In this document: positions 22 through 56,559 of the stretch, piece by piece | How the letters are laid out: every line of letters begins with the position of its first letter | Position numbering within the stretch: position 1 is the first letter of the stretch | Sequence record: KT454805 | From: Escherichia phage phiSUSP1 | Reading direction: 5' to 3' (one strand) | Length of the DNA: 64,000 nucleotides | The notes under the pieces: generated by a model | The model's database searches: none | The model's input: only the letters and a program-made list of their open reading frames with translations | What the model was told of the DNA's origin: nothing | Translations under genes and position numbers: made by a program

Positions 22-1623
22 ATGGATTTGAATGCTGTTAAGCAGAAGCGAGTGGAAGATGTAAGGAAAGTCCTAGCTGGAGAGTTGGGGCTTTCTGACG
101 AAGTTAAAGATATTATCAAGTCATTTGGTAAAGACCCCTCTAAATTCCTTCCTACTCAGATTCTGACTTTATTAAGATACACTCCAGACCAAGTAAGACT
201 TATCTTCAAACTTATGACTGATAAGAACTATGTAGCTCCACAACCCGGCTCTCAGGAAGTGTTTCTTAACACAAATGCTGACTTAGTTCTGTATGGTGGT
301 GCGGCTGGTGCTGGTAAGACTGCTGCTTTGCTGATGGATTCACTCAGATTTATCGAAGACCCTAACTACAACGCTGTATACTTCCGTCGAAACACGACAC
401 AGTTACAAGGTGGTTTATGGCCTGCTGCGAAGAAGCTTTTTGGTAAGTTCGGTGGTGTTCCACATGAACAGAAGATGACTATTGTATTCCCTTCTGGGGC
501 TACTATCAAGTTTACCTACTTAGAACTTGAAAAACACGCTGAAGGTCATCAGGGTATTGAATACTCAGCAATTTACTTTGACGAAGGTACACACTTCTCT
601 GCGTCACAGATTTCATACCTGCAAACTCGTTTGCGTTCTGGTGCTGAAGGTGACTCTTACATGAAGATTTCCATGAACCCAGACAGAGACCACTTCATTT
701 ATGATTGGGTAGAACCATTCTTAGACGAAGAAGGTTATCCAGACCCTGAGAAATGTGGTCGTATTCGTTGGTATGTGATGAATGATGGTGTGATGGTATC
801 TGATTGGGATAGAGACAAGATTCTTGAAATGTTCCCTCTGGAGATTCCTCAGACGTATACCTTTATCTCTGGTACGATTGATGATAACCCAATTCTTGAC
901 TTCTTGGAACCGAAGTATCGTGGTAAGCTGGAAAACAACACTCCAGTAAACGTTGCACGTTTGAGATTTGGTAACTGGAAAGCTCGTGCAGAAGGTTCTA
1001 ACTATTGGCAAAGGCAATGGTGTGAGATTGTTGACTCAGTTCCACCTGACGTATTTGACGTTAGAGCATGGGACTTAGCGGCTACTTTACCTTCTGAAGT
1101 TAACCCTAACCCTGACTGGACAGCAGGTGTTAGAATGGCTAAATCTAAAAAAGATGGTTGCTATTATGTCATGAACGTAGTAAGATTTAGAGATAGACCT
1201 TCTGGAGTCGAGACACAAATTAACTTGACTGCTGAAAGCGACGGCAAACGTACTGGTATCTTTATTCCTCAAGACCCAGGCGCTGCTGGTAAATCCTACG
1301 CAACATCTCTTATCAGAAAACTTGCCGAGAAAGGTTATCGTGCAAGAGCCAAACCAACCAATAAAGATAAAGTTACCCGTTTTGCAGGTTTCTCTGCTGC
1401 TTCTGAAGCAGGATTGGTAAAAATCGTTAGAGGTAGCTGGAACGAAGCCTATTTCCAAGAACTGGAAGGTTTTTGTGGAGATGGGAAAACCAAGGATGAC
1501 CAAGTGGATGCCACAAGCGATGCTTTCAACAGTCTCAACGAAGTAAAACTATTCAAGCCACCTTCTATGGGTACTCACACTGACTTAGTGAGGAGCAATC
1601 CTTATGAGGGGCTTAGACGTTAA
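22..1623 (+). CDS. terminase large subunit (ATPase + nuclease); ORF is open to the window edge so the start may lie upstream, ATG at 22 has a GGAGG RBS
   Basis: P-loop/Walker A LYGGAAGAGKTAALL about 95 aa in; about 535 aa; immediately upstream of portal gene. Confidence 0.85.
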   Translation: MDLNAVKQKRVEDVRKVLAGELGLSDEVKDIIKSFGKDPSKFLPTQILTLLRYTPDQVRLIFKLMTDKNYVAPQPGSQEVFLNTNADLVLYGGAAGAGKTAALLMDSLRFIEDPNYNAVYFRRNTTQLQGGLWPAAKKLFGKFGGVPHEQKMTIVFPSGATIKFTYLELEKHAEGHQGIEYSAIYFDEGTHFSASQISYLQTRLRSGAEGDSYMKISMNPDRDHFIYDWVEPFLDEEGYPDPEKCGRIRWYVMNDGVMVSDWDRDKILEMFPLEIPQTYTFISGTIDDNPILDFLEPKYRGKLENNTPVNVARLRFGNWKARAEGSNYWQRQWCEIVDSVPPDVFDVRAWDLAATLPSEVNPNPDWTAGVRMAKSKKDGCYYVMNVVRFRDRPSGVETQINLTAESDGKRTGIFIPQDPGAAGKSYATSLIRKLAEKGYRARAKPTNKDKVTRFAGFSAASEAGLVKIVRGSWNEAYFQELEGFCGDGKTKDDQVDATSDAFNSLNEVKLFKPPSMGTHTDLVRSNPYEGLRR

Positions 1624-1640: not shown

Positions 1641-3107
1641 ATGGCAGAAATTACAGAAACACAAGAAAGCCTACCTCCATTCAGAATGGGTGAGGTTGGG
1701 AGCCTTGGTTTAAAGGTTCGTGGTGGAAGAATCTACGAAGAACCTAGACAAGCTTTAAGATTCCCAGAAAGTATTAAGACTTTCCAACTGATGATGCGTG
1801 ACCCTGCTGTAGCGGCATCTGTAAACATTATTAAGATGTTTGTTAGAAAAGTCAACTGGAGATTTGTTCCTCCGAAGGGAAAAGAACAAGACCCTAAGAT
1901 GATTGAACGAGCAGACTTCTTTAACTCTCTGATGGATGACATGGAGCATGATTGGGCTGACTTTATTAACTCTGTAATGTCATTCTGTACTTACGGATTC
2001 TGCGTGAATGAGAAAGTTTACAAGAAGCGTCAGGGTAATAAAGGGAAATACCCTTCAAGATATAATGATGGTTTAATTGGTTGGGCTAAACTCCCTATCA
2101 GAAACCAGTCAACTCTTGATAAATGGTATTTTGATTCAGATTATCGAAAAGTAACAGGTGTTAGACAGAATCTGAGAAACGTTTCACACATTGCTGGAGC
2201 TATTAATCTGGCTGAACAGCCACTGACAAGAAAACTTCCAAGAAGTAAATTCTTGCTGTTCAAATATGATGATGAATACGGTAACCCAGAAGGTCGTTCA
2301 CCATTGCTTAATGCTTATGTACCTTGGAAATATAAAGTCCAAATTGAAGAGTACGAAGCAGTTGGTGTTTCCAGAGACTTAGTAGGTATGCCAAAGATTG
2401 GTTTACCACCTGATTATCTGGATGAGAATGCTGAACCTGAAAAGAAAGCTTTCGTAGAATACTGCAAATCTGTAGTTAATGATATGATTGCAAATGACCG
2501 AGCAGGTTTAATCTGGCCTAGATTCATCGACCCAGAAACTAAAGAGGATATCTTTGAGTTCTCATTAGTGTCTAGACAGGGTGCAAAGGCTTATGATACC
2601 GGAGCTATTATTGACCGTTATTCTAAGCAGATTATGATGGCGTTTATGTCAGATGTTCTTGCAATGGGTCAGTCAAAATATGGTTCATTCTCTTTAGCAG
2701 ATTCTAAGACAAGTTTACTTGCAATGTCTGTAGACATTCTTCTGAAACAAATCAGAAACGTAATTAACCGTGACCTAGTAGCACAGACTTACGCTCTGAA
2801 TATGTGGGATGATGAAGAACACGTTCAAATCGTTTATGACGACATTGAAACTCCAGACCTTGAAGCTATCGGTGCTTATATTCAGAAGACCGTCGCAGTT
2901 GGTGCTATGGAAGTTGATAAGGAACTGTCTAACAAGCTTAGAGAACACATTGGCTTACCACCTGCTGATGAGTCTCAACCTGTGTCTGAAGAATTATCTC
3001 CTAACACTCAAAGTCGTTCAGGAGATGGTTATAAGACTGCCGGAGAGGGAACTGCGAAGACCCCTTCAGCAAAAGACCCAAGTACAGCGAATAAGGCAAA
3101 TAAATAA
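1641..3107 (+). CDS. portal protein
   Basis: about 490 aa ORF directly after terminase and before prohead protease; ORF track start 1632 is GTG, ATG at 1641 more likely. Confidence 0.7.
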   Translation: MAEITETQESLPPFRMGEVGSLGLKVRGGRIYEEPRQALRFPESIKTFQLMMRDPAVAASVNIIKMFVRKVNWRFVPPKGKEQDPKMIERADFFNSLMDDMEHDWADFINSVMSFCTYGFCVNEKVYKKRQGNKGKYPSRYNDGLIGWAKLPIRNQSTLDKWYFDSDYRKVTGVRQNLRNVSHIAGAINLAEQPLTRKLPRSKFLLFKYDDEYGNPEGRSPLLNAYVPWKYKVQIEEYEAVGVSRDLVGMPKIGLPPDYLDENAEPEKKAFVEYCKSVVNDMIANDRAGLIWPRFIDPETKEDIFEFSLVSRQGAKAYDTGAIIDRYSKQIMMAFMSDVLAMGQSKYGSFSLADSKTSLLAMSVDILLKQIRNVINRDLVAQTYALNMWDDEEHVQIVYDDIETPDLEAIGAYIQKTVAVGAMEVDKELSNKLREHIGLPPADESQPVSEELSPNTQSRSGDGYKTAGEGTAKTPSAKDPSTANKANK

Positions 3108-3607
3108 TGGCTGAAGTTATCTCTATTTCAAATGCTACACGAGTGCATTCGTATAGAGGTGTTCTGGTTATTACTGATACGTTATCTGTAGAGGCTGGCT
3201 CAAGGGTCAGCCTTTCAGGTTATGTAAGTGATGGTGGAACCTCTAACGTTTTCACTATTTGTAGGTTACTTGATGCTCCAATGAACGGAAATTCGTTTAT
3301 TTCAAACAATTGTAGCGAAATTGTTAAAATTCCATTTGACAGTTCATGCCTTTTGGGTGTAAAGTTATATAACTGTGAAAATAAACGTATAAACGTTAAT
3401 AGCGTTGAAGCTGCGTTCATTACCATTGACACAGCATTTCAATCCCCAATGACAGTAAACAAAGAGTCTAACAGACTTGAGTACATTTTTTCACAAAATG
3501 ATTACAAAGTACTTGTCAAAGGTAAAGTATATGATATGATTGTAAATGTGGTGGATGAATCTGGTAACCATTCAACAGTCCTTAAACAGAAAGTAAGGTT
3601 CAATTAA
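3107..3607 (+). CDS. hypothetical protein (166 aa) between portal and protease
   Basis: ORF track; start overlaps portal stop; no recognisable motif. Confidence 0.4.
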   Translation: MAEVISISNATRVHSYRGVLVITDTLSVEAGSRVSLSGYVSDGGTSNVFTICRLLDAPMNGNSFISNNCSEIVKIPFDSSCLLGVKLYNCENKRINVNSVEAAFITIDTAFQSPMTVNKESNRLEYIFSQNDYKVLVKGKVYDMIVNVVDESGNHSTVLKQKVRFN

Positions 3608-8180: not shown

Positions 8181-8754
8181 GAAAGGGATTGTTAGAACTT
8201 TGGTAGATGTTATTGGTCACCGATTAGCTCGTGATAAGAATAACAGACCAAACGTTATTAGGGCTTATCCCTCTGACAACTCTAACGATAAAGGTTTAAA
8301 ACCTGACCAGCCATTCATTACAGTATACTGCCAAGATGCTACAACACCTTATGGTTGGGTACTTGATAAATTCGTGGAAGATGACGTAGTTTGTTATCGA
8401 ATTGCTTTTCAGATTCCCGTACTAATTACTGTAAATGGTAAAGGTGCTCACAGTATTATGCTGGAGCTAAAACAAAGGTTAGAGATGAGTTCCACAAGGG
8501 ATTTATTGCTTGAACAAACAGGTGCTACGGTACTTGATACTGGAGCTATCCCGAATGATTACACTTATCTTAACACAGATTTCGAAAATTCTGCACCTCT
8601 TGTTGTAACCCTTGTAATGAACTCAGTCTTGAAAGATGAACGTGGTGGTATTATTGAGCGCGTTATCGTTGATGGTGAGTTGGTTTATGAGGAAGGACAG
8701 GAGCCACCAGAATATATTATCCATCTAGATGTAGACTCCAAAGGGGTAAAATAA
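8155..8754 (+). CDS. tail completion / sheath terminator-like protein (putative)
   Basis: ORF track; immediately precedes putative sheath gene. Confidence 0.35.
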   Translation: MQLETAELEKGIVRTLVDVIGHRLARDKNNRPNVIRAYPSDNSNDKGLKPDQPFITVYCQDATTPYGWVLDKFVEDDVVCYRIAFQIPVLITVNGKGAHSIMLELKQRLEMSSTRDLLLEQTGATVLDTGAIPNDYTYLNTDFENSAPLVVTLVMNSVLKDERGGIIERVIVDGELVYEEGQEPPEYIIHLDVDSKGVK

Positions 8755-11301: not shown

Positions 11302-13540
11302 TGGCACAATATACAGTTGATAGCTTTATTGTGGAGTTGGGTTTCAGTGAAAAGGTTGTTAAAGGTTTGCAGAGAGTTGAAAGGATGGCTATGCAGTCTG
11401 CTCAACGAATCGAACGTAATATTAACAAAGCCTTTGACGTGAAACCTAATAAGTCTTCACAGGAAGCATTAAACAGAATTGTAAAAAACGCTCAGACTGC
11501 TTCGGGCAGAATCAATAAAGCACTCAACAACTCCCTTAACCTTGATTCACAAGGTGTTAAATCTCTTAAAAGACTGGAAACTCAAGGTAGAAAAACTGCC
11601 AAGGAAATTAACAAGGCTTTAAGAGACGCTATGAAAGTTGATGGAAAAGTCACTGTTCGTGGTGGTAGAAAAGGTGGTACTGGTTTCCCTCCTACTGGTG
11701 GAAGTGGTAACCCAAGACCTCCAAGACCTGATATTGCTCAGAGACAGATGGAAAGAATGTTTAACAACAACTTCTACTCTGGTCTGACACGTCGCCTTGA
11801 AACTATTGGTGGACAAGGTAACCAAATGGCAGCTTCCTTCAGAGGAAACCTGCAAGGTCTTTATAACAAATATAAGGGAACTGGTAAAGTCGGTGAATAT
11901 GAGATGGAAGTCAAAAAGCTCATTGACGTTACCAAGCGTTGGGTTATTGCAGAAAATGCTAGACTCAAGTCAGTCAGAGAATCAGCTTGGCTTCAGGAAA
12001 GAGCTAACTCATCTCTACGTCAGATGATTGGTGGTTTTGTTTCAGCTTATGCAGCCTTAGAATTGGCTCAGAAGACTATTGATGCAGGTGTTAAAAGACA
12101 GTCTGCACAGTTAGCCTCAACAGCTATCTTTGGAGCAGATACACAGCAAGCTAGAATGTTCGCTGCATCGTTTGCTCATCAGATTGGACAGAACTACACA
12201 GACACCATGAAGCAATACTCAAACTTTGCTGCTGGTGCTCAACCTGCTCTTGGATTCCAAGGGACTCAGGAGTTCTATAAGAATGCTGCGATGTTCTCCC
12301 GTATCAGGGGTGCAACAGACGAAGACCTGAAAGGTATCATGGTTGCTTTCCAACAGATGGCTTCTAAGGGTAAGATTCAGGCTGAAGAACTTCGTGGTCA
12401 GTTAGGTGACCGTTTGGCAGGTGCTGTACAGTTATTTGCTGATGCTATCGGTAAGACACCACAAGAACTTGATAAGATGATGAAGGACGGTAAACTCCTT
12501 GCTGAAGATGTACTTCCAAAGGTATCTGAAAAGATGGCTGAGTTGGTACAGGCAGCAGGTGGTATGAATGCCGTATCTAAGCAGACAGCTACCTCAATGG
12601 GTCAAGCGAAGTCTATGTGGGATAACATGTTAGTTGCATTGTTTAATAACTCTAGCGACGGTATTTCACAGCTTTCACAATCCATTGCAATGTTCTTACA
12701 AGGTTCTATGGGTACTGCTGAAGCACTTGGCACAGTGATTGGTTACCTGTTAAAAGGTGCTGGTAACTTACTTGACTTCGTAACAGATATCATGTATAGA
12801 ACATCTTCACTGTATTACTCTGCAATGGCATGGTACAAGGATTTGGATGCAAGTCAACAGAAACTTATCAAGGATTCTGCTGAACTAGTTTCAACCTTTG
12901 CTATGATTGGTGTTGCAATTGCTGCTATTACGAAGGTTGCAAAAATCTTTGGCGGTACTGTAGCATTCGTTAAGAGTATCTTTGAAGAAGGTATCTTTGC
13001 AAAAATTATGCAGAAGTTTGGTTTAGGTGGAGCAGCAGCAGCCTCTGAAGCAGCAGGTGTTGCAGGTGTATCAGCAACTAGGATGGCTCTCGGTACAGTT
13101 GGTTCATCACTGATGTTGTCCGGTTCTACAGACAGAAAGAACAATGGTAGATTCAGTGAAGTTGACCTTCCAAAACCTTTTGAAGACGCTGTATCAAGCA
13201 TCACCAACCCTAAACGTCCAATGTTCTTTGACCAGAATGGACAGCTACAGTTTGCACAATATTCTGTAGATGCTCAAGGTAATCGTAGCTTTGTTGATAA
13301 TGGAATGTCCAATTGGGATATTATCATGAACAACTTGTCAGAGTCTTTAAACAACTTTGCAACTAAGTTCAACCAAACCCCAATGATGATGACGCCTTCT
13401 GGTTTCCCTATGCAGACTAGACAGACTCTGAATGTTTCATTCAATCTGGATGGTAAGCAGATTGCTACTAAGACGGTTGATATCATGGACAAGAACCAAG
13501 AAGATATCCTTCTTAACTCAAGTTACCCAGAGGAAGAATA

Positions 13541-27118: not shown

Positions 27119-27499
27119 TCATAGACCTACGCAGGTACGCTTTTCAACAAAATAGTGAACACCTTTGAAAGTTTCATCCATCATTTCACTTTCAGTATCA
27201 CTGACCTTCTCAATGCTCTTGGAATCAAGCAAGTCAACATCCTGAGTGACCATAGCATCAGAAACAGCTTCGTAGTAGTCTGCCATCACACGATATTTGT
27301 AATCAGTAATACGGTCAGACATTTCTATGACAGTTGGAGAAGATAACGGCTTAGTTAACTCCCCAGCATCTGTTACGACTTTACGAACAATCTGACAAGC
27401 CTCCATAGAGACCTTGCTAAAGTCTGCTTCAGGCATCTTCATAGCTGATGCACCAAAACTCAGAGTTGCCAGAATGACACCTACCATAAGCTTTTTCAT
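27119..27499 (-). CDS. secreted/periplasmic protein with cleavable signal peptide (126 aa)
   Basis: N-terminus MKKLMVGVILATLSFGASA with AxA cleavage site; two Cys; GAGGTGA RBS; first gene after the repeat-rich promoter region. Confidence 0.5.
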   Translation of the reverse strand: MKKLMVGVILATLSFGASAMKMPEADFSKVSMEACQIVRKVVTDAGELTKPLSSPTVIEMSDRITDYKYRVMADYYEAVSDAMVTQDVDLLDSKSIEKVSDTESEMMDETFKGVHYFVEKRTCVGL

Positions 27500-27543
27500 A
27501 ACTCACCTCATATAAAATTTTGTATACATTCAAGTATAAAAAT

Positions 27544-27582
27544 AAGCTATAACACCTGACTTGTCAACAGATTTTATAGCTT
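27544..27582 (-). promoter_or_regulatory. minus-strand promoter region with -35 TTGACA flanked by a 9-bp inverted repeat
   Basis: TTGACA on minus strand at 27563..27568; AAGCTATAA (27544..27552) and TTATAGCTT (27574..27582) are perfect reverse complements; -10 is not clean. Confidence 0.35.
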
Positions 27583-27602
27583 ATTTGGCAGATTTTTTAT
27601 AA

Positions 27603-27753
27603 GGCTACTGCCATCCTTCCATACCTCACCACACAAGACCAGACCATGCCGTACTCCACTTCACAGGACCAAGCATCACTTAAAAACCCTCTTAGAAGAC
27701 TCTTAAGTGGTGTAAGTCTCATTTTAATGTAGCTGAGACTAACTACCCATACC
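27603..27753. repeat. regulatory repeat module copy 1: CA-rich tract + 36-bp element A + 42-bp hairpin element B
   Basis: element A 27674..27709 is identical to 29230..29265; element B 27712..27753 repeats at 27855..27896 with 1 mismatch; plus strand almost lacks G across the CA-rich tract. Confidence 0.75.
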
Positions 27754-27816
27754 GAACCTTACTAAACCACACTTTACCTGACTGAACCCTACCAAACATC
27801 ACCATGCCAGACCAAA

Positions 27817-28003
27817 CCTTATTAAAAGACCCTCTTCAAAGACCTTTTAAAAAGGTGAGTCTCATTTTAATGTAGCTGAGACTAACTACCCATACCAAAC
27901 CAGACCGCACCAGACAAAACCACGCCAAACCGCACCTTACCCAACCTTAACACACCAGACCCAACCTTATTAAAAGACCCTGTTTAAAGACCTTTTAAAA
28001 AGG
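27817..28003. repeat. tandem duplication of about 148 bp (element C, CA-rich tract, element B)
   Basis: 39-bp element C at 27817..27855 and 27965..28003 (2 mismatches); B copy 2 at 27855..27896. Confidence 0.7.
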
Positions 28004-28022
28004 AGCCTCCGAAGAGGCTACC
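27993..28022 (-). terminator. intrinsic terminator for minus-strand gene 28031..28471
   Basis: on minus strand, hairpin AGCCTC-ttcg-GAGGCT followed by TTTTT. Confidence 0.6.
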
Positions 28023-28030
28023 TAGTCAAC

Positions 28031-28471
28031 TTAGAAAGGCTTTCTACGTTGCTTGTTAATGTTAGCTTTCATAGCAGCTAAATGGTTTTGCTGTTCAATC
28101 AGTCGTGAACGTTCTTGATGACTAAGTGCCATAGTGTTCACATTCTCAATTGCTTGGGTGGCTTGCTTTAAAGCTCGACCAATCTTACCAGACATTTTAC
28201 GTTTTGCAATAGTTGCTTGATGTTTTGGTTCAACTACACGATAACCCACACCCATTGAAGCAACCAGATAAATCTTTTCTTCTTTAAGAAGCTTTTCGAT
28301 AAACTTCTCAAGTCGGTTTAATCGTGTCAGAGAATAAGCCTTCATCTCATCTTCGTACTTAACAATATCACCCTGATAAGTTGGCTTCACAATACCTAAG
28401 AAGGTATCCATTTCAGAGTGTGATACAGTATCACCGTAACTAAACTTTGCTGCTAATGCTTTTGTATTCAT
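28031..28471 (-). CDS. hypothetical protein (146 aa), cassette gene 2
   Basis: ORF track; basic C-terminus; no recognisable motif. Confidence 0.45.
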   Translation of the reverse strand: MNTKALAAKFSYGDTVSHSEMDTFLGIVKPTYQGDIVKYEDEMKAYSLTRLNRLEKFIEKLLKEEKIYLVASMGVGYRVVEPKHQATIAKRKMSGKIGRALKQATQAIENVNTMALSHQERSRLIEQQNHLAAMKANINKQRRKPF

Positions 28472-28473
28472 AA

Positions 28474-29079
<606 letters not shown>

Positions 29080-29149
29080 TTAGTTGATTGTTAAGTTGTT
29101 TGTAAAGAACCCTCAACAGAAGACTCTTTAGAAACTTGGTAGATTTTTA

Positions 29150-29310
29150 ACGTGGCTACTACCATCCACCCACACCAGACCAAACCTAGCCTTACCCCAC
29201 CGCACCTTACCGAACCACACCTTACCATACATCACTTAAAAACCCTCTTAGAAGACTCTTAAGTGATGCTGGTGAGTACCCGTTGGTTTATGCTGCTCAG
29301 TATACTCACC
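29150..29310. repeat. regulatory repeat module copy 2: CA-rich tract + element A + B-like hairpin
   Basis: element A 29230..29265 is a perfect 36-bp copy; 8-bp stem hairpin GGTGAGTA...TACTCACC at 29271..29310; CA-rich tract 29150..29229 shares blocks with 27603..27673. Confidence 0.7.
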
Positions 29311-29322
29311 AAATTTTCTATG

Positions 29323-29511
29323 TCAACAACTTTCTAATAAAGTTTTATAAAGATTTTGCTTAACGACTCGCCTCACATGCCTATGCTCTTTCTTAATAAA
29401 GAGTGACCTCTTCTTGATAGAGCGCCTATTCTTGTAAGTGTTGCTAGGGTACTTATCGTGACCCGGACAACAACTGCCAGGATTTGTAAACTTGATAATC
29501 TCTCTTTTCAC
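29323..29511 (-). CDS. small basic ORF (62 aa), doubtful
   Basis: GTG start overlapping ligase stop by 1 nt; lysine/arginine-rich; may be non-coding leader. Confidence 0.2.
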   Translation of the reverse strand: MKREIIKFTNPGSCCPGHDKYPSNTYKNRRSIKKRSLFIKKEHRHVRRVVKQNLYKTLLESC

Positions 29512-30611
29512 TATTCATAATCCCTAATAACGAGACCAACAGGGAACTGTAAAGACCCCTTACGAGTCATCTTCTGGAACTGAACTGTCAAAGGTTTCCC
29601 GATAAACTCTTCAGGATGTTCAGCAAGATACTGTTTCTTCTCGTGTGTAGTCTTCCATGAAACATCTACAAAGACGTTAGGAAGAGTCTCTACAACGAAC
29701 TTACCATGACCACGCTTATCGGTCTTCACACCAGTAATTTTAAACTCTTCAGTGTGCATCTTCTTGTGCTTAATCAAGAAGTATGAACGGTGACCACACT
29801 CGTAGAAAGATTCTTCAGAGATTGAACGGTACATTGCACCTTCAAACTTAGCTTCAACCCACTTATCATGAGCTTCATCAAACTCTTCCCAAGAATTTAC
29901 ATGGATAGTCTGTACAGGAACAACTCTACAGGTATCCCCAAGCTGAACGAGAGGTGAACTGTCAATAACTTCACGACGCTCAGGCCAAGATTTTGAATTG
30001 TCACAGATATCATACCAGTAGAATTTAAGAAGGTGACGGTCTGGATTGTCAGCATTCTTAATCATAGAGACAATATCTTCTAAGTCCCAACCATGAGCAT
30101 AAATCTCACCATCAAAGTCTTCAACTTGTGGATGTAATTTAAGCAACAAAAGCAAATCTGGGATTAGTTCTGTTGGAACGTTGTAAACAGTATTCTCACG
30201 AGAATAAGCCGTGAAACTAACTGAATCAGCATTCTTTGAAATCCTACAACGGACACCATCAAGTTTTGGTTGAGCATCAGCAGGGAACTTCAGATACTTT
30301 GCATGGCTAACCTTTGCAGCATCATGAGCAAGCTGTACACCAACCTTCTCAACACACTCTGCTTCAGATTTTGTGTAAGCGTAACCTTTACGGTCAACCT
30401 GTTTCTTGTACTTAGCAGCAACTTCAAAGAGAGCTTGCTGTTCAGCATTACGCTCATTCTTTTTACCGATGTTTTTCGGTTCTGCTGTGTACTCTTCAAA
30501 CATCATCTTGCCATTTTCTTTACCGTAAGTTGTGACAACTTTATCACCTACGGCAACACATGACCAGACGTTGAAAGAACCATCTTTATTTTGTTTGTAC
30601 AGGATTGTCAT
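29511..30611 (-). CDS. ATP-dependent DNA ligase
   Basis: adenylation motif KLDGVRC; 366 aa, similar in size to T7 ligase. Confidence 0.8.
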   Translation of the reverse strand: MTILYKQNKDGSFNVWSCVAVGDKVVTTYGKENGKMMFEEYTAEPKNIGKKNERNAEQQALFEVAAKYKKQVDRKGYAYTKSEAECVEKVGVQLAHDAAKVSHAKYLKFPADAQPKLDGVRCRISKNADSVSFTAYSRENTVYNVPTELIPDLLLLLKLHPQVEDFDGEIYAHGWDLEDIVSMIKNADNPDRHLLKFYWYDICDNSKSWPERREVIDSSPLVQLGDTCRVVPVQTIHVNSWEEFDEAHDKWVEAKFEGAMYRSISEESFYECGHRSYFLIKHKKMHTEEFKITGVKTDKRGHGKFVVETLPNVFVDVSWKTTHEKKQYLAEHPEEFIGKPLTVQFQKMTRKGSLQFPVGLVIRDYE

Positions 30612-54741: not shown

Positions 54742-56559
54742 ATGAGTAAATCACTTTACGCAGTACCAGCAGGTCTTAATGCAGATGCTTACAAGTCATC
54801 ACACATCTACCAGTATCCAGATGCTACTCAGTATCTTATGCTGAATTTAACGCCTCGTGGAGACAAATGGTTTAACTCTCCATTAGAAATTGATGGTGTT
54901 GTAGCATTTGGTATTCAGCGTTTTGTAAAAGACTATCTGGTAGACCACTGGAATGCAACGTTCTTTGAACGTGATAAGAAAGAAGCCATTGACGAAATCT
55001 TGGAAATCATGAATGGTGTACTTGGTGCAGATGCCATTGGTCGTCAACATTGGGAAGAACTTCATGACTTAGGTTATCTGCCTGTTGAAGTCTACTCTGT
55101 AGAGGAAGGTACAATTGTCCCTATGCGTGTCCCGATGATTATATTCAAAAACACTGTAGAGGGCTTCCATTGGGTAGCTGGTTATCTCGAAGATGCTTTC
55201 TCTGCTGAAATCTGGAAAGCTTGTACAATTGCAACTATTGCACTACATTACAAACGTATTTGTAAGAAGTGGTCAGATTTGACCTGTGATAACGACTTCC
55301 ATCTTCCTTGGCAGTGTCATGACTTTGCAATGCGTGGTATGTCTGGATTCACAGATGATGCGTTTAACGCAGTAGGTCACCTGACAAGTTTTAAAGGTAC
55401 TGACAGCTTCCCTGCTGTATACACAGCTAAACGTGCATATGGTCAGTTTATGACTGTAAGTGATATCGGGAACTCTGTACCAGCAACTGAACACTCTGTG
55501 ATGTGTGCAAACATCTCATGGAATAGTTGTGCCAAAGAAGTAAGTGATTGGCATCTGCTACAGTCTGACAACTTGTTAGATGCAATGCGTTGGCGTGGTG
55601 AGGTAGAAACTTTCCAACGTCTTCTGACAGAAGTCTACCCAACTGGTATTGCAAGTGTTGTATCAGATACTTACAACTTCTGGAGAACTGTTACACAGAT
55701 TTTACCAGAGCTACGTAATGTGATTCTGAATCGTGATGGTAAGTTGGTAATCCGTCCAGACTCTGGAGACCCTGTTCACATTGTCACTGGTTACAAAGTC
55801 ATTGAATGGGAAACTGCTAAGTCAATGTTCTATAAGCACATGAAAGGTCTTGCACCAGATAACACCCACCTGCATGATGCAATCTTGAATTGTGAAATGG
55901 CTGATATTGGCTTTGGATTATCTGCTTGGCTAATCTCTGAAGGTTATGAGATGGTTGTTGAAAATGAAGATTTTGATTATATTGATACAATCAACCTGAT
56001 TACTGCTCAGAAAACTGGACAGTTTACTGTGAAGCGTATGTTAACAGCAGAAATTGATGGAGCTATCCACACGCTGTATAACATCTTTGGTGGTACTGTT
56101 AACTCCAAAGGGTACAAAGTACTGGATGAGCACATTGGACTAATCTACGGTGATTCTATCACTTTGGAAAGGGCTAATGAGATTCTATCACGTCTTGCTG
56201 ATAAAGGTTTTGCAAGTTCTAACGTAGTGTTTGGTGTAGGTTCATACACCTATCAGTACCTGACTCGTGATACCTTTGCATTTGCTGTTAAAGCAACTCT
56301 TGCACAGATGGACGGTCAAGAAATCATGCTGGCTAAAGACCCTAAAACAGATAGTGGTCTGAAGAAATCTGCTTTTGGTGGAGTCATCCCTATGTGGGAC
56401 GGTGATAAGCTGGAAGCTGTAGATGGTTTTGGTTTTGCAGAGTTTGAAGGTGCAATTGAGAATTGTCAGAGCGCTTTGAAACTGGTATTTAGCAACTCAC
56501 AACCTTATGGTTATGTTAATCTACGTGATGTACGAAATACTATTGACAAGCAACTTTAA
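54742..56559 (+). CDS. nicotinamide phosphoribosyltransferase family protein (Nampt/NadV-like)
   Basis: blocks match Nampt from memory: DAYKSSHIYQYP, HDFAMRGMSGFTDDAFNAVGHLTSFKGTDS, VPATEHS, VVSDTYNFW, LVIRPDSGDPV. Confidence 0.8.
   Translation: MSKSLYAVPAGLNADAYKSSHIYQYPDATQYLMLNLTPRGDKWFNSPLEIDGVVAFGIQRFVKDYLVDHWNATFFERDKKEAIDEILEIMNGVLGADAIGRQHWEELHDLGYLPVEVYSVEEGTIVPMRVPMIIFKNTVEGFHWVAGYLEDAFSAEIWKACTIATIALHYKRICKKWSDLTCDNDFHLPWQCHDFAMRGMSGFTDDAFNAVGHLTSFKGTDSFPAVYTAKRAYGQFMTVSDIGNSVPATEHSVMCANISWNSCAKEVSDWHLLQSDNLLDAMRWRGEVETFQRLLTEVYPTGIASVVSDTYNFWRTVTQILPELRNVILNRDGKLVIRPDSGDPVHIVTGYKVIEWETAKSMFYKHMKGLAPDNTHLHDAILNCEMADIGFGLSAWLISEGYEMVVENEDFDYIDTINLITAQKTGQFTVKRMLTAEIDGAIHTLYNIFGGTVNSKGYKVLDEHIGLIYGDSITLERANEILSRLADKGFASSNVVFGVGSYTYQYLTRDTFAFAVKATLAQMDGQEIMLAKDPKTDSGLKKSAFGGVIPMWDGDKLEAVDGFGFAEFEGAIENCQSALKLVFSNSQPYGYVNLRDVRNTIDKQL

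What the first reader, a model, noticed from the sequence alone, without database searches (positions are those of the whole stretch)
27603..28025. Repeat-dense, strand-asymmetric intergenic region with tandem duplicated modules and hairpins
This 420-bp gene-free stretch has three element types. Element A is a 36-bp sequence at 27674..27709 repeated perfectly at 29230..29265. Element B is a 42-bp direct repeat at 27712..27753 and 27855..27896 (1 mismatch) containing a 7-bp stem hairpin AGTCTCA...TGAGACT. Element C is a 39-bp repeat at 27817..27855 and 27965..28003. Between them lie tracts made almost only of C and A on the plus strand (ACC/CCA-rich), which is G/U-rich on the transcribed minus strand. 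The arrangement is a tandem duplication of about 148 bp plus a leader module. Only two copies of each element exist and the spacers are related, so this is not a CRISPR array. It could be a cluster of early promoters, a processing or structured-leader region, a protein-binding array, or a recombination hotspot.
Basis: seen in the sequence. Interest (0 to 1): 0.75.

Follow-up and report, generated by a model that had tools for sequence, protein, structure and literature searches.

The report
Guide-RNA genes of phage VIPR system
The repeat-dense "intergenic" stretch is an array of three guide-RNA genes (with a fourth one 1.5 kb away) of the recently described phage VIPR system. In that system a small Cas7-like protein reads a GGY-NN pentamer code to find and silence the DNA of a rival satellite phage. 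The feature is real and remarkable, but it was already published in April 2026.

Summary
On the transcribed minus strand the "C/A tracts" are strict 5-nt repeats, (YNNGG)n, of 11-16 units. There are four such tracts in the 64 kb and none in shuffles. They flank a two-gene operon. The first gene, at 28474..29061(-), is 195/195 identical to PDB 36pp, "SUSP1 Vipr protein". Two 2026 bioRxiv preprints from the Doudna lab describe this locus in phage SUSP1 as the archetype of VIPR (Viral Interference Programmable Repeat). It has one vrRNA upstream and three downstream of vipr-vap1. One Vipr protomer binds each GGY, and the NN dinucleotides pair with DNA while skipping every third base. I confirmed the defining features here: the pentamer profile, the 3' pseudoknot tails with compensatory changes (element B is such a tail), and the 1-nt-skip rule. 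For the skip rule, 30 of 56 related guides matched E. coli satellite phages at 80% or more, against 0-3 for other rules or shuffles. Window guide vr2 hits the satellite tape-measure gene and vr4 hits its recombinase gene. Elements A and C are strand-specific RNA hairpins placed 5' of each guide, and the preprints do not explain them. Verdict: already known.

The parts
29299..29326 (-). sigma70-like promoter (TTGACA-16-TATACT, 11/12) upstream of vrRNA1 and vipr. The predicted transcription start is near 29292.
   Evidence: A promoter is annotated at the same place in phage AYO145A. Its function is inferred.
29230..29268 (-). 5' hairpin of vrRNA1.
   Evidence: MFE is -17.5 kcal/mol on the minus strand (z -6.3) against -8.6 on the plus strand. 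16 pairs are kept across 10 variants.
29170..29229 (-). vrRNA1 guide tract of 12 YNNGG units. The NN code is AT AA GT TC AA GC GG AA TA TT CT GT.
   Evidence: The preprint's SUSP1 vrRNA1 also has 12 repeat units.
29138..29169 (-). vrRNA1 3' tail, an H-type pseudoknot (GTGG/CCAC and GGTAG/CTACC).
   Evidence: 96% of cells are paired and 4 pairs show compensatory changes.
29103..29135 (-). Hairpin between the vrRNA1 tail and the vipr ribosome-binding site. It carries the same GUC...GGG motif as elements A and C.
   Evidence: -9.6 kcal/mol on the minus strand against -3.3 on the plus strand. (the motif is restricted to this locus).
28474..29061 (-). vipr gene (195 aa, starting at ATG 29061), encoding a minimal RAMP/Cas7-like protein that polymerises on the vrRNA.
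   Evidence: 195/195 identical to PDB 36pp_D 'SUSP1 Vipr protein', E = 2e-130. The RNA/DNA-contact residues named in the preprint (H17, K33, R39, E71, M72, K82, G87, K88, R138, C173, D177, W178, R179) are all present.
28031..28471 (-). vap1, the vipr-accessory gene (146 aa).
   Evidence: Its position is directly downstream of vipr. It belongs to phrog_5926, of unknown function. It is named vap1 by the locus description in the preprint. Its function was not tested here.
27997..28019 (-). Intrinsic terminator-like hairpin (AGCCTCTTCGGAGGCT plus a T-run) after vap1.
27965..28003 (-). 5' hairpin of vrRNA2.
   Evidence: -10.7 kcal/mol on the minus strand against -8.1 on the plus strand.
27890..27969 (-). 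vrRNA2 guide tract of 16 YNNGG units. The first and last units are constant.
   Evidence: Under the 1-nt-skip rule it matches 24/28 positions in the satellite tape-measure gene, with 0 of 300 shuffles as good.
27858..27889 (-). vrRNA2 pseudoknot tail (GTAG/CTAC and AGTCTCA/TGAGACT).
   Evidence: 100% of cells are paired and 3 pairs show compensatory changes.
27817..27855 (-). 5' hairpin of vrRNA3.
   Evidence: -12.1 kcal/mol on the minus strand against -6.6 on the plus strand.
27747..27821 (-). vrRNA3 guide tract of 15 units, 4 of which are degenerate at the first G.
   Evidence: No significant target was found.
27715..27746 (-). vrRNA3 pseudoknot tail.
27674..27712 (-). 5' hairpin of vrRNA4.
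27619..27673 (-). vrRNA4 guide tract of 11 units, 4 of which are degenerate at the first G.
   Evidence: It matches 17/20 positions in the satellite serine-recombinase gene, with 2 of 300 shuffles as good.
27587..27618 (-). vrRNA4 pseudoknot tail (AAGG/CCTT and GGCAG/CTGCC).
27539..27567 (-). sigma70-like promoter of the next gene (126 aa). It is not part of VIPR and marks the end of the array.
   Evidence: A promoter is annotated in AYO145A.

Best explanation
The region is the downstream vrRNA array (vrRNA2, 3 and 4) of a type II VIPR (Viral Interference Programmable Repeat) system. The second copy of element A marks vrRNA1, upstream of the vipr-vap1 operon. Each gene is transcribed from the minus strand into an RNA of about 90-115 nt made of 11-16 YNNGG pentamers plus a 32-nt 3' pseudoknot. 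According to the published cryo-EM work on the identical protein, one Vipr protomer binds each pentamer. The protomer flips out and sequesters the GGY bases and presents the two N bases. The resulting helical filament pairs the NN dinucleotides with double-stranded DNA while skipping every third target base, forming an R-loop triplex that blocks transcription. The natural targets are genes of an E. coli-resident satellite phage that parasitises this phage. The skipped base falls on the codon wobble position, so synonymous escape mutations do not help the target. Shown here by computation are the protein identity, the repeat code, the pseudoknot covariation, the skip-1 rule and the satellite targets. 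Taken from the preprints are the expression of the RNAs as small RNAs, the binding of RNA by Vipr and the silencing of the target. It is my inference that elements A and C are hairpins delimiting the guides for processing out of a longer transcript.
For: The Vipr ORF is 195/195 identical to PDB 36pp 'SUSP1 Vipr protein'. The window is colinear from base 1 with sister phage SUSP2 at 98.2%. There are four phase-locked (YNNGG)n tracts of 12, 16, 15 and 11 units, all on the gene strand, with none elsewhere and none in shuffles. In the pentamer profile, position 1 is a pyrimidine in 100% of units, position 4 is G in 83% and position 5 is G in 98-100%, while the NN positions have entropy 1.7-2.0 bits. 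The architecture of one vrRNA upstream and three downstream of vipr-vap1 is exactly as published for SUSP1. The tails fold as H-type pseudoknots: 96-100% of cells are paired, 7 pairs carry compensatory changes, and slid controls pair only 23-50%. Among 17 related phage loci whose vap1 is 99-100% identical, the NN bases are hypervariable and the array holds 1-3 guides. For the skip rule, 30 of 56 guides matched six satellite loci at 80% or more with skip 1, against 3, 0 and 2 guides for skips 0, 2 and 3, and 3 for shuffled guides. 28 of those 30 best hits lie inside the satellite, although the satellite is only 50% of the searched DNA. Window guide vr2 matches 24/28 positions in the satellite tape-measure gene (0 of 300 shuffles) and vr4 matches 17/20 in the recombinase gene (2 of 300), and in both the skipped base is the third codon position (plus the annotation). 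No self-target reaches 80% in the window. The mechanism is from bioRxiv 10.64898/2026.04.26.720920 and 10.64898/2026.04.26.720927.
Against: I found no convincing target for vr1 or vr3 in six satellites, IMG/VR, GTDB genomes or JGI metagenomes. The vr2 and vr4 matches are 78% and 77% if the constant first and last units are counted, just under the preprint's 80% cut-off. Several units in vr3 and vr4 have A or T instead of the first G, so these guides may be partly decayed. An intrinsic terminator sits between vap1 and vrRNA2, so how vrRNA2-4 are transcribed is unresolved. Expression of the RNAs and binding by Vipr were not and cannot be tested with these tools. They rest on preprints that are not yet peer reviewed.
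Confidence: 0.96

Rival explanations
1. It is a replication origin or R-loop / G-quadruplex element. A G-rich non-template strand with GG every 5 nt would form stable R-loops or two-tetrad quadruplexes that prime or regulate DNA replication.
For: There is strong G/C strand asymmetry and GG periodicity, and the region lies next to DNA-metabolism genes such as the ligase at 29511..30611.
Against: The hypervariable NN positions with strictly kept GGY, the compensatory changes in the pseudoknots, the G-U-dependent strand-specific hairpins and the skip-1 matches to satellite genes are not expected of an origin. The adjacent protein is the solved RNA-guided Vipr.
Confidence: 0.01
2. It is a decoy or sponge RNA for a host RNA-binding protein. 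Multiple GG motifs would titrate CsrA, or a ring protein such as TRAP that reads triplets spaced by 2-3 nt.
For: The 5-nt spacing resembles the TRAP binding rule (established knowledge). The conserved sequence AAGGAUGG lies in the vrRNA4 tail.
Against: The third base is U or C in 100% of units, not the A of the CsrA GGA core. E. coli has no TRAP. The cognate binder is known and is encoded next door.
Confidence: 0.01
3. It is a genome terminus or packaging region. Short repeat arrays next to direct terminal repeats occur at T7 concatemer junctions, and Felix O1-like phages are reported to have ~580-bp terminal repeats.
For: The GenBank records pinkbiff, KhF3 and warpig start or end inside this array. 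PhageTerm reported a 581-bp direct terminal repeat for a Felixounavirus.
Against: Most records, including the one with the PhageTerm result, have the array in mid-genome. The window and SUSP2 start elsewhere. Record breaks at repeats are a common assembly artefact. All the RNA-level evidence points elsewhere.
Confidence: 0.01
4. It is a cluster of early promoters or a structured leader for the downstream gene.
For: There are two good sigma70-like promoters at the edges of the locus, and element C contains a weak TTTAAA-19-TTTAAT arrangement (read from the sequence).
Against: The promoter-like count equals the chance expectation, 6 against 5.6. The A/C motif occurs nowhere else in the 64 kb. 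The tracts are guides, not spacers between promoters.
Confidence: 0.02

Closest known systems
VIPR type II system of Escherichia phage SUSP1 (bioRxiv 10.64898/2026.04.26.720920 and 10.64898/2026.04.26.720927, April 2026; PDB 36pp)
   Same: The Vipr protein is identical. The vipr-vap1 operon is the same, as is the arrangement of 1 + 3 vrRNAs. vrRNA1 has 12 repeats. The YNNGG code, the 3' pseudoknot tail, the 1-nt-skip targeting and the satellite-phage targets all agree.
   Different: Nothing material differs, and the window is most probably SUSP1 itself or a near-identical isolate. Three observations here are not covered in the text of the preprints. Strand-specific hairpins lie 5' of every guide. 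Some satellites carry orphan vrRNA genes without vipr. The locus is present in more than 200 Felix O1-like phage records.
CRISPR class 1 crRNA with the Cas7 backbone (Cascade, Csm/Cmr)
   Same: A RAMP-fold protein polymerises on a guide RNA, and a thumb flips out bases at a fixed period. The array holds several guides capped by a conserved structured handle. The targets are rival mobile elements.
   Different: The period is 5 nt with 3 bases sequestered, whereas in CRISPR class 1 one base in 6 is flipped. The guide is non-contiguous and skips every third target base. There are no 23-50 bp direct repeats, no cas1/cas2 and no known spacer acquisition. The system is phage-encoded and silences its target without cutting it.
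TRAP-trp leader RNA recognition (Bacillus)
   Same: An oligomeric protein reads a triplet repeated with 2-3 nt non-conserved spacers, which gives a ~5-nt periodic RNA.
   Different: TRAP is a closed 11-mer ring that reads GAG/UAG for attenuation, and its spacers carry no information. Here the 'spacers' are the information and the filament is an open helix that binds DNA.

Membership tests
VIPR (type II, SUSP1 clade) | A Vipr protein, which is a minimal RAMP with an RRM core, a G-loop and a thumb, is encoded in the locus. | tested here: met
   The ORF at 28474..29061(-) is 195/195 identical to PDB 36pp_D 'SUSP1 Vipr protein'. The published contact residues are present.
VIPR (type II, SUSP1 clade) | An accessory vap gene lies in an operon with vipr. 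| tested here: met
   A 146-aa ORF at 28031..28471(-) starts 3 nt after the vipr stop codon. No library family is known for it. Its DNA-binding role is taken from the preprint only.
VIPR (type II, SUSP1 clade) | vrRNA genes consist of 9-16 YNNGG tandem repeats with conserved GGY and hypervariable NN. | tested here: met
   There are four tracts of 12, 16, 15 and 11 units. In the profile, Y is 100%, G at position 4 is 83% and G at position 5 is 98-100%, with NN entropy 1.7-2.0 bits. NN differs between phages whose flanking genes are 99-100% identical.
VIPR (type II, SUSP1 clade) | A conserved 3' tail forms a hairpin and a pseudoknot. | tested here: met
   There are two tail types with the same H-type topology. 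96% and 100% of cells are paired, with 4 and 3 pairs changed on both sides, and slid controls pair at most 50%.
VIPR (type II, SUSP1 clade) | The vrRNAs lie in the intergenic regions flanking vipr. In SUSP1 there is one upstream and an array of three downstream. | tested here: met
   The tract at 29170-29229 is upstream, and those at 27890-27969, 27747-27821 and 27619-27673 are downstream, matching.
VIPR (type II, SUSP1 clade) | Targets obey the 1-nt-skip rule (xNN), usually with the skipped base at the codon wobble position, and for this clade lie on a satellite phage. | tested here: met
   At clade level, 30 of 56 guides matched at 80% or more with skip 1, against 0-3 with other rules or shuffled guides, and 28 of 30 hits fall inside the satellite. 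For the window, vr2 matches 24/28 and vr4 17/20 with the skipped base at the third codon position. vr1 and vr3 have no target.
VIPR (type II, SUSP1 clade) | There is no self-targeting. | tested here: met
   The best skip-1 match of each guide within its own 64-kb window is 62-71%.
VIPR (type II, SUSP1 clade) | The vrRNAs are expressed as ~100-nt RNAs that co-purify with Vipr and silence matched DNA. | not testable with these tools
   This is published for SUSP1 (sRNA-seq, pull-down, GFP and lambda assays).
CRISPR array | Near-identical direct repeats of about 23-50 bp alternate with unique spacers of similar length, and cas genes are nearby. | tested here: not met
   The repeat unit is 5 nt. 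The longer repeats (A, B, C) have two copies each and are structured handles and hairpins. No Cas family hits were found in the neighbouring ORFs.
CsrB/RsmZ-type CsrA sponge RNA | There are many GGA motifs, mostly in hairpin loops. | tested here: not met
   The base after GG is T in 88-91% and C in 9-12% of units, and never A. Rfam finds nothing even at E <= 1.

The most novel reading that the evidence does not exclude
The conserved, strand-specific hairpins are the maturation signals of type II VIPR arrays. These are elements A and C and the related hairpin between vrRNA1 and vipr. They sit at every guide boundary and would be sites where host RNases (RNase III or RNase E) cut the vrRNAs out of a longer transcript. 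That is the role played by hammerhead ribozymes in other VIPR types and by repeats in CRISPR arrays. A related open point is that satellites carry orphan vrRNA genes with the phage-type tail but no vipr. This would mean they borrow the helper phage's Vipr protein for their own guides.
Probability: 0.4. Interest if true: 0.4.

Novelty: already known. Interest (0 to 1): 0.3.

Why it matters
VIPR is a newly described way of recognising DNA with RNA. The guide is non-contiguous, read by a ~20-kDa Cas7-like protein, and was proposed as an ancestor of CRISPR effectors and as a compact programmable repressor. A reader working from raw sequence alone singled out exactly this locus, which shows that the signature is detectable by eye. 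That signature is GG every 5 nt on one strand, hairpins at the boundaries and two-copy handles. No curated library (Rfam, Pfam, NCBIfam, PADLOC) has a model for it yet, and in GenBank it is left unannotated or labelled 'repeat_region' or 'possible StbAB site'. For this window the finding adds nothing new in kind. Three things remain open: how the guides are transcribed and processed, what vr1 and vr3 target, and whether satellites use the helper's Vipr protein.

Tried and rejected
- **Terminus or packaging site.** I followed this because three GenBank records break here and a Felixounavirus paper reports a 581-bp terminal repeat. I rejected it because most records have the array in mid-genome.
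- **R-loop origin, G-quadruplex, or TRAP/CsrA-like sponge.** I considered these from the 5-nt periodicity before the protein was identified. They were superseded.
- **Elements A and C as a phage-specific promoter.** The motif occurs only in this locus, so it is not a general promoter.
- **Profile libraries.** Pfam, PHROGs, NCBIfam and PADLOC gave no function for Vipr or Vap1. Rfam gave nothing at the gathering threshold or at E <= 1. There are no tRNAs in the window.
- **Exact skip-1 pattern scans for targets.** IMG/VR gave 0 hits for the vr1 and vr2 cores. GTDB genomes gave 1 hit (a Cyclobacteriaceae MAG) and JGI metagenomes gave 2 hits. In all of these the flanking units do not match, and about one match is expected by chance for 20 specified bases, so I rejected them as chance.
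- **BLAST with 'idealised' targets.** Searching for satellites with better vr2, vr3 or vr4 sites found none better than the source loci.
- **Satellite-encoded guides.** They have no target at 80% or more in six satellites or in the window.

Full report
**1. What is in the sequence**

All genes around the finding lie on the minus strand. The stretch 27500-28030 separates a 126-aa ORF (27119..27499) from a 146-aa ORF (28031..28471).

- Element A is 36/36 identical at 27674..27709 and 29230..29265.
- Element B has 1 mismatch in 42.
- Element C has 2 mismatches in 39.

The repeat finder recovers the 148-bp tandem duplication.

Read on the minus strand, the "C/A tracts" are not just G/U-rich. They are strictly periodic, with GG every five bases and a pyrimidine next, i.e. 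(YNNGG)n:
- 12 units at 29229..29170.
- 16 units at 27969..27890.
- 15 units at 27821..27747.
- 11 units at 27673..27619.

A phase-locked scan finds such tracts nowhere else in the 64 kb, on either strand, and in none of 20 shuffles.

**2. Identification**

The window is a Felix O1-like phage of the genus Suspvirus. It is colinear from base 1 with Escherichia phage SUSP2 at 98.2%.

The four tracts flank a two-gene operon. Neither protein has a Pfam, NCBIfam or PADLOC family. However, the first one (ATG at 29061, stop at 28474) is 195/195 identical to chain D of PDB entry 36pp, "SUSP1 Vipr protein".

A literature search led to two bioRxiv preprints of April 2026:
[quoted passage not shown] The published description has these points:
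- The locus has a vipr gene (a minimal RAMP, Cas7-like) and an accessory gene vap1.
- It makes four ~100-nt vrRNAs, "one upstream, three in an array downstream".
- Each vrRNA is made of 9-16 YNNGG repeats followed by a conserved tail with a pseudoknot.
- vrRNA1 has 12 repeats.

This is the anatomy of the window point for point. The window is therefore most probably SUSP1 itself, which is absent from the searchable phage collection.

**3. Tests of the defining features**

*(a) Repeat code.* In the 54 units of the window, position 1 is T (91%) or C (9%), position 4 is G in 83%, and position 5 is G in 98%. The two N positions have entropies of 1.97 and 1.73 bits. In 397 units from related phages the picture is the same. 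In 17 IMG/VR loci whose vap1 is 99-100% identical to the window's, the NN bases differ freely and the downstream array holds one to three guides.

*(b) Tail.* The 32 nt after each tract fold as an H-type pseudoknot of two kinds:
- GTGG/CCAC plus GGTAG/CTACC, or AAGG/CCTT plus GGCAG/CTGCC, in vrRNA1 and vrRNA4.
- GTAG/CTAC plus AGTCTCA/TGAGACT in vrRNA2 and vrRNA3.

On alignments of the distinct variants, 96% and 100% of cells are paired. Four and three pairs change on both sides. Sliding the partner by 1-3 columns drops pairing to 23-50%.

*(c) Targeting rule.* A BLAST of the locus against 5,426 complete E. coli genomes hit only the vrRNA1 tract and tail, in 130 chromosomes. These hits lie in an 11-12 kb integrated element that encodes a serine recombinase, a baseplate protein, a tape-measure protein and an HNH endonuclease. 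This is the satellite described in the preprint.

I decoded 56 distinct guides from 20 phage loci and scanned six satellite loci with 0-3 skipped bases.

| Rule | Guides matching at 80% NN or more |
|---|---|
| Skip 1 | 30 (7 of them at 90% or more) |
| Skip 0 | 3 |
| Skip 2 | 0 |
| Skip 3 | 2 |
| Skip 1, guides with shuffled unit order | 3 |

28 of the 30 best hits fall inside the satellite, which is only half of the DNA searched.

For the window's own guides, the first and last units are constant parts of the hairpin and tail, so I trimmed them:
- vr2 matches 24/28 positions in the satellite tape-measure gene (0 of 300 shuffles as good).
- vr4 matches 17/20 in the recombinase gene (2 of 300).
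- In both, the skipped base is the third codon position (with the annotation).
- vr1 and vr3 have no significant match.
- None of the four guides matches its own 64-kb window above 71%.

**4. How it works**

The mechanism comes from the preprints and concerns the identical protein. [quoted passage not shown] G1 and G2 are flipped into pockets formed by H17, D177, R138 and W178, and the pyrimidine goes into a pocket too narrow for purines. This leaves the two N bases stacked for pairing.

On double-stranded DNA the filament pairs NN with two target bases and extrudes the third. R-loop formation starts at the pseudoknot end. The non-target strand is threaded through the filament, giving an "R-loop triplex". 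Binding represses transcription on either strand without a PAM, and vap1 enhances protection. All the named contact residues are present in the window's ORF, except that position 175 is V in both the window and the PDB chain.

My contribution is the independent computational confirmation of the code, the tail structure and the targets. Expression and binding are not testable here.

**5. What remains unexplained: elements A and C**

Immediately 5' of every tract there is a hairpin that folds much better on the minus strand than on the plus strand, because its stem is rich in G-U pairs. A related hairpin lies between the vrRNA1 tail and the vipr ribosome-binding site.

| Hairpin | Minus-strand MFE (kcal/mol) | Plus-strand MFE (kcal/mol) |
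|---|---|---|
| Element A, before vrRNA1 (29230-29268) | -17.5 | -8.6 |
| Element C, before vrRNA3 (27817-27856) | -12.1 | -6.6 |
| Element C, before vrRNA2 (27965-28004) | -10.7 | -8.1 |
| Between vrRNA1 tail and vipr (29103-29135) | -9.6 | -3.3 |

Ten variants of element A keep all 16 predicted pairs. Four pairs change on one side only (G-U to G-C or A-U) and one changes on both sides. The shared motif GUCUUY...GGGUY occurs nowhere else in the window. In two relatives a 27-nt insertion sits in the loop without disturbing the stem.

The preprints' text has no occurrence of maturation, RNase, leader, terminator or transcription start. They do note that other VIPR types separate guides with hammerhead ribozymes. 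My inference is that in this type the hairpins mark processing sites for host RNases. I cannot exclude that element C also acts as a weak promoter. An intrinsic terminator follows vap1, and TTTAAA-19-TTTAAT can be read in element C.

**6. Alternatives considered**

Before the protein was identified I considered an R-loop origin, a G-quadruplex element, a TRAP- or CsrA-like protein sponge, and a terminal-repeat or packaging region. The last idea arose because three GenBank records break inside the array and a 581-bp terminal repeat is reported for a relative. None of these explains the combination of hypervariable NN, compensatory pseudoknot changes, G-U-dependent hairpins and skip-1 matches to satellite genes. 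A promoter cluster is not supported, because sigma70-like sites are at chance level.

**7. Verdict**

It is the archetypal VIPR vrRNA array, published as preprints in April 2026 with solved structures, so it is already known.

The residual interest lies in guide biogenesis (hairpins A and C), the missing targets of vr1 and vr3, and orphan guides on satellites. Four of six sampled satellites carry one vrRNA gene with the phage-type tail but no Vipr or Vap1 homolog.

The locus is present in more than 200 deposited Felix O1-like phage genomes. There it is unannotated or labelled only "repeat_region", and no curated RNA or protein library recognises it yet.

Noticed in passing
L024 14983-15084; L025 15001-15087; L026 14271-14367; L027 14846-14947 (E. 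coli chromosomes): Four of six sampled E. coli satellite elements carry one vrRNA gene (11-14 YNNGG units plus the same pseudoknot tail as the window's vrRNA1). None has a Vipr or Vap1 homolog by tblastn within 9-15 kb. These would be orphan guides that need the helper phage's Vipr protein. I found no target for them in six satellites or in the window.
   Followed up: partly
window 27540-27586: A 19-nt inverted repeat (89% complementary, 9-nt gap) brackets the -35 TTGACA of the sigma70-like promoter of the downstream 126-aa gene, whose product looks like it has a signal peptide. This may be an operator.
   Followed up: no
window 29103-29135: A fourth copy of the GUC...GGG hairpin motif lies between the vrRNA1 tail and the vipr ribosome-binding site. 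It is not in front of a guide, so the motif marks unit boundaries rather than guide starts.
   Followed up: partly
GenBank MN850603 (pinkbiff), KT184315 (KhF3), MN850637 (warpig); loci L003, L021, L022: Three deposited Felix O1-like genomes start or end inside the vrRNA array, probably because assemblies break at the repeats. The KhF3 annotators labelled a nearby repeat 'possible binding site of StbAB', and the Danish wastewater phage records label the tracts 'repeat_region'.
   Followed up: partly
L004-L020 (IMG/VR), positions ~2939-3420 of each locus: The number of downstream vrRNA genes varies from 1 to 3 among phages whose vap1 protein is 99-100% identical. Some guides contain runs of identical units (for example TCAGG x4), and two phages have a 27-nt insertion in the loop of hairpin A. 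This suggests rapid turnover by recombination between the constant handles and by slippage.
   Followed up: partly
window 27619-27673 and 27747-27821: In vrRNA3 and vrRNA4, 4 of 15 and 4 of 11 units have A or T instead of the first G (YNNAG or YNNTG), while the second G is kept. The guides may tolerate this, or they may be decaying.
   Followed up: no
window 746-825, 8631-8695, 11316-11395, 56391-56470 (plus strand) and 29831-29890: Other short windows have strong G/C strand bias but no 5-nt GG periodicity. They were not examined further.
   Followed up: no
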